A DNA stretch of 4,580 bases from a virus (Duplodnaviria; Heunggongvirae; Uroviricota; Caudoviricetes), in the IMG/VR virus record IMGVR_UViG_2681813263_000015; one strand, given 5' to 3'. Of this stretch, positions 177-4,580 are shown one piece after another. The first letter of the stretch is position 1. Every line of letters begins with the position of its first letter. Both the position numbers and the translations under genes were made by a program. The notes beneath the pieces are model-generated. The model saw only the letters and a list, made by a program, of their open reading frames with translations, did not search any database and was not told the origin of the DNA.

Positions 177-1259
177 ATGAAAAAATTAACAGTGGCAATT
201 TCTGCTGTAGCTGCATCAGTACTGATGGCGATGTCTGCTCAGGCAGCTGAAATTTATAATAAAGACAGTAACAAGCTGGATCTGTACGGGAAAGTTAATG
301 CTAAGCACTACTTCTCCTCTAATGATGCAGATGATGGTGATACTACTTATGCCCGTCTTGGCTTCAAAGGTGAAACCCAAATCAACGATCAACTGACTGG
401 TTTCGGTCAGTGGGAATATGAATTCAAAGGCAACCGCGCTGAATCTCAAGGTTCCTCCAAAGATAAAACCCGTCTTGCCTTCGCTGGCCTGAAATTCGGT
501 GACTACGGCTCCATCGATTACGGCCGTAACTACGGTGTAGCATACGACATCGGTGCGTGGACTGACGTCCTGCCAGAATTCGGTGGTGACACTTGGACTC
601 AAACAGATGTGTTCATGACTGGTCGCACCACTGGTGTTGCAACTTATCGTAACAACGACTTCTTTGGTCTGGTTGATGGTCTGAACTTTGCTGCTCAGTA
701 TCAGGGTAAAAATGACCGCACTGACGTAACTGAAGCTAATGGTGATGGTTTCGGTTTCTCCACTACTTATGAGTATGAAGGATTCGGTGTAGGTGCAACC
801 TATGCTAAATCTGACCGCACTAATAATCAGGTTATCTACGGTAACAACAGCCTGAATGCATCTGGTCAAAATGCTGAAGTATGGGCAGCTGGTCTGAAAT
901 ATGATGCGAACAACATCTATCTGGCTACCACCTATTCTGAAACCCAGAACATGACTGTTTTTGGTAATAACCATATTGCCAACAAAGCACAAAACTTCGA
1001 AGTAGTTGCACAATATCAGTTCGACTTCGGTCTGCGTCCGTCCGTTGCTTACCTGCAATCTAAAGGAAAAGACTTGGGTGCGTGGGGTGATCAGGACCTG
1101 GTTGAATATATTGATGTAGGTGCAACCTATTACTTCAACAAAAATATGTCCACTTTTGTTGATTACAAAATCAACCTGATTGATAAGAGCGATTTCACGA
1201 AAGCATCTGGCGTTGCTACCGATGATATCGTTGCTGTAGGTATGGTTTACCAGTTCTAA
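177..1259 (+). CDS. nmpC: Outer membrane general porin, NmpC/OmpD family (360-aa precursor)
   Basis: The ORF track gives 117-1259; I place the start at ATG 177 ([29 protein letters not shown]), preceded by AAGGG 6 nt upstream. It has a classic Sec signal peptide with AQA-A cleavage motif, a Gly/Tyr/Asn/Asp-rich beta-barrel composition and the porin C-terminal signature ...VGMVYQF ending in Phe. The sequence is near-identical, from memory, to E. coli NmpC / Salmonella OmpD. Confidence 0.9.
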
Positions 1260-1313: not shown

Positions 1314-1346
1314 NNNNNNNNNNNNNNNNNNNNNNNNNNNNNNNNN
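1314..1346. other. Run of 33 N (masked or unresolved sequence)
   Basis: Directly visible in the sequence. Confidence 1.
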
Positions 1347-2471: not shown

Positions 2472-2758
2472 GCCTTAATAACCCCCTCTTTCAGCCAGAT
2501 AACCTGCGTTCTCGCCATACCTTCCAGCGCGCATTCTTTTGCATACTCAGCATCGACAAAATATGTGCGGCGGTCGATTTCGTCGTGACAGGCAGAACAT
2601 GCAATGGTGGCAATCAGGTCTGGCGGTTTGATACCGGTACCGCACAATCCAGCCAGCCGGATATGTGCCAGTACTGACGTTTCAGGATTGCCATTACATA
2701 CGCCAGGGATTCTTACCTGGCATTCCCGACCACGCGCTGCTTTTCTCAAATCAGCCAT
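2468..2758 (-). CDS. ybcO: YbcO-like nin-region protein (DUF1364-type putative nuclease, Cys-rich), 96 aa
   Basis: The track ORF is 2468-2797; I place the start at ATG 2758 ([23 protein letters not shown]...), which gives 96 aa and has a strong AGGAGG 4 nt upstream. Conserved Cys/His residues (CQ..C...H...C..CH) suggest metal binding. Matches K-12 YbcO from memory. Confidence 0.85.
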
Positions 2759-2921
2759 GATTCCTCCTTGCTGCCAGTCGCAACCATTTTTTATCAACCA
2801 GGCTAGCGGTATATCCGAGCAGTGTTGGTATTTCGGATGGCTTCAGCTCAGGCTTACGCTTACGACGATTTGATACTCTGTAGATGTGCCCGTTCATGAC
2901 ACGAATAAGCGGTGTAGCCAT
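2751..2921 (-). CDS. ninE: NinE-like protein (56 aa)
   Basis: Hand translation gives [56 protein letters not shown], then TGA. Its ATG overlaps the ybcN stop (TAATG) and its 3' end overlaps the ybcO start by 8 nt. AGGAGG lies upstream. Position and length match DLP12 ninE. Not in the ORF track. Confidence 0.75.
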   Translation of the reverse strand: MATPLIRVMNGHIYRVSNRRKRKPELKPSEIPTLLGYTASLVDKKWLRLAARRNHG

Positions 2922-3376
2922 TACGCCTCCTGCTTATCGCGCAGCTGCTGGTATTCACAGCTCTGCGGAATTGTCAGGTGGCAGCCGATATTCATCGCCC
3001 AGGCTTCGACTTTGCACAGGAAGATGTACATCTCGCCGGTTTCCAGCTCTGACGTATGGCGGAGGGATTGGACGGTGGTGACCTCGCCGGACACGACATC
3101 TACACGGTCTTTGCTTTCGTAGCCGAGATAGGTGTGCTTCATCGCGTCTTTGACCCACTCAGGCGTAGCGAAGGTCTTGCCGCGGGCGATGAGATATTCG
3201 CTGATCTCCGTGTACCACATGTGGCTGAGCGCGTTCTGCGACAGGCTGCGCTTCTCGCGCCACGGCTTAACCTGCAGGCGTAAGCATTGCCCGGCATCCA
3301 GCAATGGCTGAATCTGCTGGCCGATGGCCGCGAAGTTACCGCGATGGAGTTTGATGCCGTCTACTGGCAGAGTCAT
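2921..3376 (-). CDS. ybcN: YbcN / NinB-family protein (151 aa)
   Basis: The full ORF MTLPVDGIKLHRGNF...EYQQLRDKQEA has GGGAGG 4 nt upstream of the ATG. It contains a KRSLSQN motif resembling the RSLDQN motif of lambda NinB (Orf-family recombination mediator). Matches K-12 YbcN from memory. Confidence 0.85.
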   Translation of the reverse strand: MTLPVDGIKLHRGNFAAIGQQIQPLLDAGQCLRLQVKPWREKRSLSQNALSHMWYTEISEYLIARGKTFATPEWVKDAMKHTYLGYESKDRVDVVSGEVTTVQSLRHTSELETGEMYIFLCKVEAWAMNIGCHLTIPQSCEYQQLRDKQEA

Positions 3377-3468
3377 ACGGCCTCCCTAACGGAAACCGCA
3401 GAATGCAGAAAATCGCAGGTGCATTTCTGCATCTGTGACAAGGTGATGAGTTCAGATTGTGGTCGCAT
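3373..3468 (-). CDS. Small ORF (31 aa), ylcH-like, translationally coupled to ybcN
   Basis: Hand translation gives MRPQSELITLSQMQKCTCDFLHSAVSVREAV, then TGA. The stop overlaps the ybcN ATG (ATGA) and AGGGGA lies 6 nt upstream of the ATG. It occupies the position of ylcH in K-12. Identity to ylcH is not verified, and a short ORF could arise by chance. Confidence 0.4.
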   Translation of the reverse strand: MRPQSELITLSQMQKCTCDFLHSAVSVREAV

Positions 3469-3487
3469 TTAAGTCCCCTTAAATGCG
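3464..3487. repeat. Perfect 10-bp palindrome with 4-nt spacer
   Basis: CGCATTTAAG-tccc-CTTAAATGCG. On the minus-strand RNA it would place the putative SD (GGGA) of the ylcH-like ORF in the loop and its AUG in the stem. It lies at the junction between the phage block and the AT-rich cassette. Confidence 0.5.
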
Positions 3488-3560
3488 CAGAAGTCACCGG
3501 AGTTGTTCAGGCTCCGATGAGAGGATTATGGCGGATTGATTACGATAAATCAAAACTATC

Positions 3561-3604
3561 TTGAAGCCAAAACAGTGATCTTCGCTTTAAAAACCTTGTA
3601 TACT
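3561..3604 (+). promoter_or_regulatory. Candidate sigma70 promoter region for the AT-rich cassette
   Basis: A -10-like TATACT at 3599-3604 (immediately preceded by TG) lies about 36 nt upstream of ATG 3641. A -35-like TTGAAG at 3561-3566 is present but not at canonical spacing to that -10. AT-rich surroundings; weak call. Confidence 0.25.
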
Positions 3605-3640
3605 TTCACCTAATCACAGCCAGAACTATGGATCTAACCA

Positions 3641-4018
3641 ATGACCAACAAAGAAAACAAAGATAAATATATTAACAAGTTCAAGAAAGAGCTTTCAAAA
3701 TATATACAACCAACTGCTGGAGTGGACATTCAATTATTTAACTCTAAGGATGGTGGTGGTGTAATTAAAGCCACTTTGAATAGAAGTGGAAAAAGAAAAT
3801 CATCTATTGCTGGTAATTTTACTAAATTAGGTGAGGCAATTACCTCGAGTGGGCAGAGGGTTTTTGGTGGTGATCTATCAAATGTGAATTTTTACGGAAC
3901 AAATACGATTTTTGATGGAGATACAATATTTTTAATTAAATCACCTGATTCAGAGGAGTGGTCATCACAAAAAGCTTCCAAAGACGTAGAGGGCATCGTA
4001 TTTGGAGGGAAAAAATGA
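3641..4018 (+). CDS. Hypothetical small soluble protein (125 aa), Gly/Lys/Ser-rich, no recognised domain
   Basis: Clean ORF with an in-frame stop immediately upstream (TAA at 3635-3637): MTNKENKDKYINKFKKELSKYIQPTAGVDIQLFNSKDGGGVIKATLNRSGKRK...GIVFGGKK. There is no signal peptide or TM segment and only a weak SD (GGAT). Composition is AT-rich relative to the flanking phage genes. Its stop overlaps the start of the next gene. Confidence 0.6.
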   Translation: MTNKENKDKYINKFKKELSKYIQPTAGVDIQLFNSKDGGGVIKATLNRSGKRKSSIAGNFTKLGEAITSSGQRVFGGDLSNVNFYGTNTIFDGDTIFLIKSPDSEEWSSQKASKDVEGIVFGGKK

Positions 4019-4443
4019 TTAACATTACTACTAAGGATGGCACTCAAGTCAGTGGTGAAGTAAGAGATCTAGTAATTCTTCTTGAAACTGATGGAAAAAC
4101 GGTGTCTGATTATTTGCAGCCAATCCCTCCCAAAAAAGATACACACTGGAGCATGATTTTCATTCCGGTAGCAATTTATATACTACTTAATCTTGTATAC
4201 ATTATTGCTCACCCATTATTTCCTGAAAAATATCTAAAAACATCAACATCTATATTTCTATTCATTTCCTTCATATTAAGTGCAATAGTAGCATATTTTG
4301 TTTTCCATAAGCATAAATCTGCCACTCTATCCATATGCAGCTTAGTGTTCTTAGTGTTAATTGTAGGTGCTAACGTAGGGTTTATCAGTTACAGCGACCT
4401 AACACAAAAAGCGACGCAAAAATTAGATAGTTTGTCTAAATAA
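4015..4443 (+). CDS. Hypothetical small membrane protein (142 aa): soluble N-terminal region of about 45 aa plus three predicted TM helices
   Basis: The track ORF is 3958-4443; I place the start at ATG 4015 (MINITTKDGTQVSGEV...), preceded by GGAGGG at 4005-4010 and overlapping the upstream stop (ATGA). Hydrophobic stretches at about residues 46-67, 78-98 and 104-125 are separated by short charged loops (EKYLK, HKHK). KK before TM1 suggests an N-in topology. Confidence 0.65.
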   Translation: MINITTKDGTQVSGEVRDLVILLETDGKTVSDYLQPIPPKKDTHWSMIFIPVAIYILLNLVYIIAHPLFPEKYLKTSTSIFLFISFILSAIVAYFVFHKHKSATLSICSLVFLVLIVGANVGFISYSDLTQKATQKLDSLSK

Positions 4444-4450
4444 TTATGTT

Positions 4451-4471
4451 GCCATGCGAAGTATGCATGGC
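4451..4471 (+). terminator. Stem-loop downstream of the cassette (possible weak terminator)
   Basis: GCCATGC-gaagtat-GCATGGC is a perfect 7-bp stem starting 8 nt after the stop codon. The following sequence (TGCATGTCTGCCTTCCATTT) is only moderately U-rich, so this is not a canonical intrinsic terminator. Confidence 0.3.
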
Positions 4472-4580
4472 TGCATGTCTGCCTTCCATTTAAAATGGGC
4501 TAAGACCTATAACCCTAAATATTATTCTTTATTATCTTCTTTACCACTTCGGTGATGCTGCCAACTTACTGATTTAGTGT

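What the first reader, a model, noticed from the sequence alone, without database searches (positions are those of the whole stretch)
4015..4443. Small three-TM membrane protein with cytoplasmic N-terminal domain: candidate effector or immunity component
The topology implied by the sequence (KK before TM1, HKHK between TM2 and TM3) is a roughly 45-residue soluble head plus three helices. This size and architecture resemble both membrane-disrupting abortive-infection effectors and pore-forming-bacteriocin immunity proteins (which are about 110-180 aa with 3-4 TM). Which role applies, if either, cannot be decided from sequence alone.
Basis: inference. Interest (0 to 1): 0.6.

Follow-up and report, generated by a model that had tools for sequence, protein, structure and literature searches.

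The report
Orphan membrane protein in mobile two-gene module
The flagged gene really encodes a small three-helix inner-membrane protein, always paired with an upstream 125-residue soluble protein. The pair travels as an AT-rich unit between lambda-like prophages and tiny plasmids, in slots that elsewhere hold anti-phage genes, so it is a plausible but untested new phage-defence or exclusion module.

Summary
Observation confirmed. Window 4015-4443(+) is a real 142-aa gene: GGAGG ribosome-binding site, ATGA overlap with the upstream gene, and dN/dS 0.07-0.09. It has a roughly 44-residue charged head, three hydrophobic helices and an invariant K-rich TM2-TM3 loop, predicting N-in/C-out.

It has no significant match in Pfam, NCBIfam, PADLOC, PDB or BFVD. 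Its only family is PHROG 16940, function unknown.

It never travels alone. It is coupled to a 125-aa basic soluble protein (A, 3641-4018). The pair occurs in three co-diverged clades:
- lambdoid prophages, antisense between the replication module (gene P here) and ninB-position genes, in 46 of 5,426 complete E. coli genomes;
- a 4.27-kb mobilizable plasmid;
- a roughly 3.47-kb Rop plasmid.

In both plasmids it is the only cargo, in a rep-A-B operon. Related plasmids carry TIR+DUF4231, AIPR, a DUF4433 cluster or a methyltransferase in the slot after rep.

Best reading (about 0.35): a new two-gene conflict module, with B as membrane effector and A as cytoplasmic partner. It is like RexAB in logic but not in sequence. 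The bacteriocin-immunity reading lacks any bacteriocin partner. Function is untested.

The parts
3556..4500 (+). AT-rich two-gene cassette (about 34% GC against about 52% in the flanking nin genes), inserted antisense between replication gene P and ybcN/ninB of a DLP12-like lambdoid prophage
   Evidence: GC profile and GC comparison. Homology to the K-12 DLP12 ybcN/ylcH flank stops at about window 3555.
3599..3604 (+). Candidate -10 hexamer TATACT (with TG just upstream) for the cassette's own promoter. Unverified.
   Evidence: Read from the sequence. The consensus scan did not list it. The upstream region is not conserved with the Klebsiella clade.
3641..4018 (+). Gene A: 125-aa basic (pI 9.5) soluble protein with no hydrophobic segment. 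Obligate partner of the flagged gene.
   Evidence: ORF. pI and hydropathy. PHROG 18061 only. No Pfam, NCBIfam or PADLOC hit. dN/dS 0.07-0.08. Co-occurs with B in every locus.
4004..4008 (+). Shine-Dalgarno GGAGG for gene B, 6 nt before the ATG and inside the 3' end of gene A (translational coupling)
   Evidence: Sequence.
4015..4443 (+). Gene B (the finding): 142-aa three-TM inner-membrane protein
4015..4146 (+). B residues 1-44: charged cytoplasmic head (beta-hairpin plus helix in a low-confidence model). The most constrained part of B among close relatives.
   Evidence: 30 of the first 36 residues are invariant in the prophage clade. Head dN/dS 0.011 against 0.18 for the TM region. Secondary structure.
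4147..4209 (+). TM1 (aa about 45-65), with P51, N59 and Y62 invariant across all clades
4243..4305 (+). TM2 (aa about 77-97), ending in the conserved AYF motif (Y94 and F95 invariant)
4306..4317 (+). HKHK cytoplasmic loop (aa 98-101). K99 is invariant and the loop is net +2 in all clades.
4324..4389 (+). TM3 (aa about 104-125), carrying the G-A-N-V-G motif (N120 and G122 invariant)
4390..4440 (+). C-terminal amphipathic tail (aa 126-142, YSDLTQKATQKLD...), predicted periplasmic and highly conserved
4445..4477 (+). Conserved hairpin immediately after the B stop codon (core GCCATGC / GCATGGC, 4451-4471). Likely 3'-end or terminator element of the cassette, without a T-run on the + strand.
   Evidence: The stem is conserved while the loop differs in Klebsiella loci. 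Folding z-scores are -2.2 (window) and -6.9 (Klebsiella).
2921..3376 (-). ybcN/NinB-family gene, the left flank of the slot (context, not part of the module)
   Evidence: Pfam NinB; annotation.
4522..4580 (-). 3' end of replication protein P, convergent with gene B (right flank; context)
   Evidence: Annotation of the identical locus L001, with the coordinate offset derived from it.

Best explanation
Gene B is the membrane component of a self-contained, horizontally mobile two-gene module (A, 125 aa soluble, plus B, 142 aa with three TM helices). The module most likely acts in inter-element conflict as anti-phage defence.

**Proposed mechanism (inferred, not shown).**
- Both proteins are made constitutively in the carrier cell. 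In the lysogen they come from the cassette's own promoter, antisense to the phage early-right operon. On plasmids they are co-transcribed with rep.
- B inserts N-in/C-out and presents its highly conserved head of about 44 residues to the cytoplasm.
- A is cytoplasmic and basic, and its translation is coupled to B. It binds or controls that head and acts as sensor or regulator.
- On infection, B oligomerises and compromises the inner membrane. The invariant Asn in TM1 and TM3 and the GxNxG motif are candidate helix-helix or pore-lining contacts. This aborts the infection.
- The logic matches lambda RexA/RexB, but the proteins are unrelated.
- During induction of the host prophage, antiterminated pR transcription running antisense through B and A could switch the cassette off. 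This is inference.

**Shown.** The gene, its three-TM architecture, the obligate pairing, the mobility, and the nature of the slots.

**Inferred.** The defence role, the A-B contact, and the membrane damage.
For: 1. **Real, constrained genes.** dN/dS is 0.07-0.09 for both.
2. **Obligate pair.** A precedes B, overlapping it by 4 nt in the prophage and 4.27-kb plasmid clades and by 17 nt in the Rop plasmids, wherever both are intact, across about 34 fetched loci. The two diverge in parallel: A is 76/43/35% and B 66/35.5/34% identical across clades.
3. **Mobile unit.** The pair is 34-37% GC in backbones of 48-57%. It is flanked by different phage genes in different prophages.
4. **Sole cargo of two unrelated minimal plasmids.** One is 4,271 bp: MobC, a 508-aa ORF in the relaxase position with no Pfam hit, Rep, A, B. 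The other is about 3,470 bp: Rep, A, B, Rop.
5. **The plasmid slot carries conflict genes.** 277 PLSDB plasmids share the rep gene (most at 80-95% identity) but lack A-B. Immediately after rep they carry DUF4231+TIR, an AIPR protein, a DNA methyltransferase or a DUF4433-containing cluster.
6. **The prophage slot is also variable.** The P-to-ybcN slot elsewhere holds a HEPN gene pair, among other cargo.
7. **Constitutive expression is implied.** Antisense orientation with its own 3' hairpin in prophages, and terminators after B on plasmids, fit a carrier-state function.
8. **Topology suits a cytoplasmic partner.** The K-rich loop 2 is conserved, and the head is the most constrained region.
Against: - There is no experimental data, and no homology to any known defence protein. 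PADLOC-DB v2 gives nothing. hhalign against lambda RexB and RexA gives probabilities of 1.8% and 0.1%.
- The argument rests on guilt by association from about 10 plasmids and 4 prophage slots examined by hand. Those slots also hold non-defence cargo: emrE, a recombinase, an alpha/beta hydrolase, IS elements, or nothing.
- The AlphaFold2 models are of low to moderate confidence (pLDDT 68 and 58.5), and fold searches were uninformative.
- No A-B complex model could be made.
- Natural isolates exist with A cut by IS1 or B cut by a Tn3-family element, so neither gene is indispensable to the carrier.
- The module is rare, in 0.85% of complete E. coli genomes.
Confidence: 0.35

Rival explanations
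1. Non-abortive superinfection or entry exclusion. B sits in the inner membrane and blocks DNA entry of incoming phages (and perhaps plasmids) without killing the cell, in the manner of P22 SieA, T4 Imm or HK97 gp15. A is an accessory or stabilising factor.
For: B is a small polytopic inner-membrane protein encoded by temperate prophages in a lysogen-expressed orientation. It is also carried by mobilizable plasmids, which commonly carry exclusion functions; MbeD exclusion genes occur in the same plasmid family. A constitutive, non-toxic role would explain why the gene is tolerated with or without A.
Against: No PHROG or Pfam match to any annotated exclusion protein. The most conserved parts include a cytoplasmic head and a cytoplasmic partner. 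From general knowledge, known single-protein exclusion factors do not need these. The predicted periplasmic exposure is tiny: a loop of about 12 residues and a 17-residue tail.
Confidence: 0.2
2. Addiction (toxin-antitoxin-like) module that stabilises the element. B is a membrane toxin held in check by A, or the reverse. Loss of the plasmid or prophage kills or arrests the cell.
For: Two small, overlapping, co-transcribed genes. They are the only cargo on very small plasmids, where post-segregational killing is a classic function. Related plasmids carry RelE/ParE-NadS modules, and a DUF4433 cluster occupies the same slot.
Against: No match to any toxin or antitoxin family, and no DNA-binding domain detected in A. 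No antisense-RNA family was found. Carriers survive with A interrupted by IS1 and B intact, and with B interrupted and A intact, although polarity could mask toxicity. The plasmid backbone family already has its own RelE/ParE system.
Confidence: 0.15
3. Some other accessory or element-maintenance role unrelated to conflict. Examples: a small transporter or stress protein (as emrE in the same DLP12 slot), or a membrane tether for the replicating element, given the position next to replication genes in both plasmids and phages.
For: The module is adjacent to replication genes in all three contexts: a rep-A-B operon on plasmids, and next to P or DnaB-type modules in prophages. A is basic (pI 9.5). 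The K-12 and O157 slots hold emrE.
Against: Related replicons with rep mostly 80-95% identical function without A-B, so it is not a replication component. In prophages it lies on the opposite strand from the replication operon. There is no similarity to SMR or any other transporter family.
Confidence: 0.2
4. Orphan immunity protein against a pore-forming bacteriocin. B neutralises an incoming colicin-type pore in the inner membrane.
For: Its size and three-TM architecture resemble those of pore-forming-colicin immunity proteins (general knowledge). Small Col-type plasmids with a related backbone do carry bacteriocin immunity and lysis genes (rows H43 and H44).
Against: No colicin, microcin, lysis or exporter gene lies beside it in any of the prophage or plasmid loci. 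No Pfam or NCBIfam immunity family matches. The strict coupling to a cytoplasmic 125-aa partner and the strongly conserved cytoplasmic head are not expected for an immunity protein that acts within the membrane. A has no signal or leader peptide, and the AG at residues 26-27 is not conserved in the plasmid clades.
Confidence: 0.05

Closest known systems
Lambda RexA/RexB exclusion system
   Same: A prophage-encoded pair expressed in the lysogen. A soluble cytoplasmic protein is encoded just upstream of a small polytopic inner-membrane protein of nearly identical size (RexB 144 aa, B 142 aa). The proposed logic is the same: sensor plus membrane effector.
   Different: No sequence or profile similarity (hhalign probabilities 1.8% and 0.1%). 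B has three hydrophobic segments rather than RexB's four (the four is from general knowledge). A is 125 aa against 279 aa for RexA. The location is between P and ninB on the antisense strand, not next to cI. A-B also lives on small plasmids.
TM-effector defence cargo of the same plasmid slot (DUF4231/SLATT-type protein plus TIR protein)
   Same: It occupies exactly the same position, immediately after and overlapping rep, in related Col(Ye4449)-type plasmids. It too combines a membrane protein with a soluble partner.
   Different: B has no Pfam DUF4231 match and a different TM number and head. A is not a TIR domain.
Class I holins (for example lambda S) and other small hole-forming phage proteins
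   Same: Small phage-encoded proteins with three TM helices that can permeabilise the inner membrane (general knowledge).
   Different: B has the opposite predicted topology (N-in/C-out) and a 44-residue cytoplasmic head. It is not in the lysis cassette; the prophage has its own essD/rrrD. It is antisense to the phage early-right transcription that runs through this region, and it is present on plasmids with no endolysin. No holin family matches.
Pore-forming colicin immunity proteins
   Same: Size range and three to four TM helices; carriage on small Col plasmids (general knowledge).
   Different: No cognate colicin gene, no family match, and an obligate cytoplasmic partner.
PHROG 16940 / PHROG 18061
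   Same: B and A are full-length members (E-values 2e-96 and 9e-85).
   Different: Both PHROGs are annotated 'unknown function', so membership says nothing about mechanism.

Membership tests
Lambda RexAB | Sequence or profile homology to RexB (membrane) and RexA (soluble) | tested here: not met
   hhalign of alignments A5 and A6 against lambda RexB and RexA gave probabilities of 1.8% and 0.1%.
Lambda RexAB | Soluble gene immediately upstream of a small polytopic membrane gene, expressed in the lysogen | tested here: inconclusive
   The gene order and sizes match. Expression in the lysogen is only inferred from orientation.
Lambda RexAB | Located in the immunity region beside cI | tested here: not met
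   The cassette lies between P and ybcN/ninB. Lambda rexAB lies beside cI.
Lambda RexAB | Infection-triggered loss of membrane potential | not testable with these tools
   Needs infection assays with a membrane-potential dye.
Known anti-phage systems (PADLOC-DB v2.0.0) | HMM match of either protein to a model of a known or candidate defence system | tested here: not met
   Zero families at E<=1 for both A and B.
Pore-forming bacteriocin immunity proteins | Adjacent gene for a pore-forming colicin or microcin | tested here: not met
   None in the gene tables of 7 prophage loci or 8 intact plasmid loci.
Pore-forming bacteriocin immunity proteins | Match to an immunity-protein family | tested here: not met
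   No such family appears in the Pfam or NCBIfam scans.
Pore-forming bacteriocin immunity proteins | Small inner-membrane protein with 3-4 TM helices | tested here: met
   Three hydropathy peaks and three model helices.
Class I holins | Three TM helices with N-out/C-in topology, encoded next to an endolysin in the lysis cassette | tested here: not met
   The charge distribution predicts N-in/C-out. The gene lies about 4 kb from essD/rrrD on the opposite strand. No holin family hit.
Superinfection-exclusion membrane proteins (SieA, Imm, HK97 gp15 types) | Match to a PHROG or Pfam family annotated as superinfection exclusion | tested here: not met
   Only PHROG 16940 (unknown function) matches significantly.
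Type II toxin-antitoxin modules | Two small overlapping co-transcribed genes | tested here: met
   ATGA overlap in the window. Overlaps are also seen on plasmids.
Type II toxin-antitoxin modules | Recognisable toxin fold and DNA-binding antitoxin domain | tested here: not met
   No Pfam or NCBIfam domains in either protein. Fold searches were uninformative.
   The best Pfam hit is 7TMR-DISM_7TM at 21.4 bits against a cut-off of 29. All other hits are weaker.

The most novel reading that the evidence does not exclude
A-B is a previously unrecognised, minimal (about 0.8 kb) two-gene anti-phage system with no detectable sequence or profile relationship to any described defence family. A small cytoplasmic sensor gates a three-TM membrane effector through its conserved cytoplasmic head. 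The system is shared between lambdoid prophages and the smallest Col-type plasmids. In prophages it may be silenced during the element's own lytic cycle by antisense read-through from pR.
Probability: 0.3. Interest if true: 0.65.

Novelty: new variant of a known kind. Interest (0 to 1): 0.5.

Why it matters
If the pair is a defence or exclusion system, it would add an unrelated, very compact analogue of RexAB. RexAB is one of the oldest phage-exclusion systems, and its mechanism is still not fully resolved. A-B is small enough for full mutational and structural dissection.

The work also points to two variable slots as places to mine for further orphan conflict genes in clinical Enterobacteriaceae. 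One is the P-to-ninB junction of lambdoid prophages. The other is the position just after rep in Col(Ye4449)-type plasmids. For phage therapy against E. coli and Klebsiella, prophage- and plasmid-borne modules of this kind are potential unrecognised resistance determinants.

If the pair is only an addiction or housekeeping module, the interest is modest.

Tried and rejected
- **Family scans.** Pfam, NCBIfam and PADLOC gave no significant hit for either protein. PHROGs gave only unknown-function families.
- **PDB sequence search.** Profile searches for both proteins gave nothing below E=0.3.
- **Exhaustive HMMER search.** The B profile against 1.84 billion representatives gave only 7 hits. A 571-aa protein (P0036) with repeats resembling the B head motif scored E=3.5e-5; I judged it a short helical-motif resemblance and did not pursue it.
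- **Double-glycine leader idea for A** (A as a microcin precursor, with cleavage after A26-G27). Rejected: the AG is not conserved in the plasmid clades and no exporter gene is present.
- **Public collections.** No match in INPHARED phages by DNA or protein. No match in PLSDB plasmids by protein. The GTDB species-representative scan found no relative.
- **Rfam scan** of 3300-4580 for an antisense-RNA antitoxin found none.
- **Promoter scan.** No convincing sigma-70 site upstream of A. The upstream region is not conserved between clades, so the promoter remains a guess.
- **Literature.** Searches on accession numbers, PHROG ids and lambdoid hotspot terms found no paper on these proteins.

Full report
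**Where the window comes from**

The window is a stretch of a DLP12-like lambdoid prophage of Escherichia coli. An identical locus is annotated in strain A7. The gene order in window coordinates is:

| Gene | Coordinates | Strand |
|---|---|---|
| Prophage porin (ompC/nmpC type) | 177-1259 | + |
| quuD (partly masked by N) | about 1503-1886 | - |
| ylcG | 1972-2112 | - |
| rusA | 2109-2471 | - |
| ybcO | 2468-2758 | - |
| ninE | 2751-2921 | - |
| ybcN/NinB | 2921-3376 | - |
| Hypothetical gene A | 3641-4018 | + |
| Hypothetical gene B (the finding) | 4015-4443 | + |
| 3' end of replication protein P | 4522-4580 | - |

Pfam confirms NinB, YbcO and RusA. The two-gene stretch is about 34% GC, against about 52% for the nin genes.

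**Checking the observation**

The flagged ORF translates to 142 aa. Its ATG lies 6 nt after a GGAGG and overlaps the stop of gene A as ATGA. So the conserved start is 4015, not the GTG at 3958 that gives the longest mechanical ORF. Most homologues are exactly 142 aa and share the N-terminus.

Hydropathy gives three strong 19-residue peaks at residues 47-65, 79-97 and 106-124. An AlphaFold2 model gives helices 44-68, 71-100 and 103-141, after a poorly modelled head with a beta-hairpin and a helix. Its mean pLDDT is 68, about 75-80 in the TM region.

A composition-preserving shuffle gives three segments in 5.5% of trials. By itself this is not strong. The same three peaks recur at the same positions in relatives only 34-36% identical, and the TM2-TM3 loop is net +2 in every clade while the TM1-TM2 loop is -1 to +1. 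By the positive-inside rule the head is cytoplasmic and the short C-terminal tail periplasmic.

Both genes are under purifying selection, with dN/dS 0.07-0.09. Within B the head is more constrained than the TM core (0.011 against 0.18 at 90% identity).

**What it is not**

- Neither protein has a significant match in Pfam, NCBIfam or PADLOC-DB.
- The only significant hits are PHROG 16940 (B) and PHROG 18061 (A), both of unknown function.
- Profile searches of PDB sequences were negative.
- Profile comparison with lambda RexB and RexA was negative.
- No Rfam family lies in or around the cassette.
- No paper mentions the accession numbers or PHROG ids.

**The unit is a two-gene module**

Family B is tiny. 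A word-indexed search of 5.8 billion proteins gave 17 clusters, all at least 63% identical. A full HMMER scan of 1.84 billion representatives gave only 7 hits. Family A is equally small.

Context look-ups show three clades.

| Clade | Element | Arrangement | Identity to window (A / B) |
|---|---|---|---|
| I | Lambdoid prophages of E. coli, Enterobacter and Klebsiella | A-B antisense to the early-right operon, between the replication module and the NinB or DUF1367 gene; neighbours are otherwise mosaic | 76% / 66% (Klebsiella loci) |
| II | 4,271-bp circular plasmid: MobC, a 508-aa ORF in the relaxase position (no Pfam hit), Rep (Replicase/PriCT_1), A, B | rep-A-B operon with overlapping genes | 43% / 35.5% |
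| III | About 3,470-bp plasmid: Rep, A, B, Rop | rep-A-B operon | 35% / 34% |

tblastn over all fetched loci finds A directly followed by B in every case. The exceptions are three related metagenome contigs where a Tn3-family element has inserted into B, and one locus with a frameshift in B. In one E. coli strain, IS1 has cut A while B is intact.

The pair is 34-37% GC in every backbone. It occurs in 46 of 5,426 complete E. coli genomes. It is absent from INPHARED phages and PLSDB plasmids.

**What the slots tell us**

*The plasmid slot.* 277 PLSDB plasmids share the clade-II rep gene (most at 80-95% identity) but not A-B. So A-B is cargo, not replicon machinery. In ten related plasmids inspected, the position just after rep holds the following.

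| Cargo just after rep |
|---|
| DUF4231 protein overlapping rep, plus a TIR protein |
| TIR protein; the gene table lists no DUF4231 gene here |
| AIPR-family (abortive-infection-type) protein overlapping rep |
| DNA methyltransferase |
| Three-gene cluster containing a DUF4433 protein |
| Small lipoprotein-like ORF plus a two-TM ORF |
| Nothing recognisable |

*The prophage slot.* The P-to-ybcN slot is also variable.

| Strain or lineage | Cargo |
|---|---|
| K-12 | emrE-ylcJ-ybcK-ybcL-ybcM-ylcH (renD lies just upstream, interrupted by IS3) |
| O157:H7 | ren, emrE, ybcK |
| Strain R6 | alpha/beta hydrolase plus IS66 |
| Strain 02E060 | HEPN protein with a small partner, plus an antirepressor fragment |

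Both homes of A-B are therefore permissive cargo slots with a clear, though not exclusive, representation of defence and toxin-antitoxin genes.

**Expression signals**

In prophages, a strong hairpin follows the B stop codon. Its stem is conserved between E. coli and Klebsiella while its loop differs. On plasmids, canonical GC-hairpin plus T-run terminators lie about 45 nt after B. The promoter of A is not resolved.

Because the cassette is antisense to the pR operon, it must use its own promoter in the lysogen. Antiterminated pR transcription during lytic growth would run antisense through it. I propose, as inference, that this could silence the module during the prophage's own induction.

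**Best explanation and rivals**

The evidence fits a self-contained mobile conflict module. B would be the membrane-acting component and A its cytoplasmic partner. The logic is that of RexA/RexB, or of the TIR plus DUF4231 cargo found in the same plasmid slot. The proteins are unrelated to either. I put about 0.35 on abortive-infection-type defence.

| Rival | Weight | Main point |
|---|---|---|
| Non-killing superinfection or entry exclusion | 0.2 | Fits a lysogen-expressed membrane protein; does not explain the cytoplasmic partner |
| Addiction module | 0.15 | Fits the sole-cargo position on tiny plasmids; no toxin or antitoxin family match |
| Unrelated accessory or maintenance role | 0.2 | The module is next to replication genes, and the slot also holds emrE |
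| Orphan bacteriocin immunity | 0.05 | No bacteriocin, lysis or export gene accompanies it anywhere |

The invariant polar residues inside the helices are candidate oligomerisation or pore-lining positions. They are N59 in TM1, and N120 and G122 in the GANVG motif of TM3. That reading is inference.

**Novelty and verdict**

The proteins are orphan families with no described function. The kind of system proposed, a soluble partner plus a small membrane effector on mobile elements, is well known. I therefore rate it a new variant of a known kind, of moderate interest (0.5). The interest depends on a simple plaque-assay experiment.

Noticed in passing
window 177-1259 (+): An intact prophage-borne OmpC/NmpC-type porin gene lies between the Q antiterminator and the lysis genes. 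The mechanical ORF extends upstream to 117. In K-12 DLP12 the equivalent nmpC is split by IS5.
   Followed up: partly
window 1314-1346 and 1477-1621: Two runs of N mask part of the intergenic region after the porin gene and part of the quuD (Q antiterminator) gene. Features there cannot be read.
   Followed up: no
window 3396-3431 (- strand): Two terminator-like hairpins lie just upstream of the ybcN/ninB start on the minus strand. This is where a lambda tR2-type terminator would sit. Part of this stretch (the AGAAAATCGC core) aligns with the Klebsiella loci.
   Followed up: partly
L052 1662-2519 (E. coli CV839-06): An IS1 element has inserted into gene A, leaving a 49-aa stub, while gene B stays intact. 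This is a natural 'A-minus' genotype.
   Followed up: partly
L031, L032, L037 (about 6375-6725 and 2485-2569): In three related metagenome plasmid contigs, a Tn3-family transposon interrupts gene B at about nt 353 while gene A is kept. The extra frameshifts there look like homopolymer sequencing errors.
   Followed up: partly
L039 (NZ_CP053742.1) 300-2496; L042 1892-4541; L048 655-3363; L043 3944-4669: The position immediately after rep in Col(Ye4449)-type and related small plasmids is a cargo slot. It holds TIR+DUF4231, AIPR, a DUF4433-containing cluster, or a DNA methyltransferase. It may be a small-plasmid defence hotspot worth a systematic census.
   Followed up: partly
L038 (NZ_CP089003.1) 2644-3142: In the same post-rep slot sit an unannotated 84-aa lipoprotein-like ORF (signal peptide and LITSC lipobox), overlapping the rep stop, and a convergent 71-aa two-TM ORF.
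   Followed up: no
L001 13499-15147: An ImmA/IrrE metallopeptidase plus DUF4411 gene pair sits next to the prophage repressor, in the rexAB-equivalent position of the same prophage.
   Followed up: no
L005 and L007 13311-14072: Klebsiella prophages carrying A-B also carry a KilA-N/BstA_C (BstA-type abortive infection) gene just after the repressor. Other loci have NYN or CbiA/AAA_31 genes there.
   Followed up: no
L046 5678-6474 (E. coli 02E060): A HEPN-domain gene overlapping a small hypothetical gene occupies the same P-to-ybcN slot as A-B in another DLP12-like prophage.
   Followed up: no
P0036 (571 aa), residues about 290-450: A protein from the 1.84-billion-protein representative library (which holds no annotation or source context) carries four to five tandem repeats (…VRDLVKKFENEGLTVEDYL…) that match residues 12-40 of the B head at E=3.5e-5. 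The meaning is unclear; it may be only a shared helix-turn-helix-like motif.
   Followed up: no
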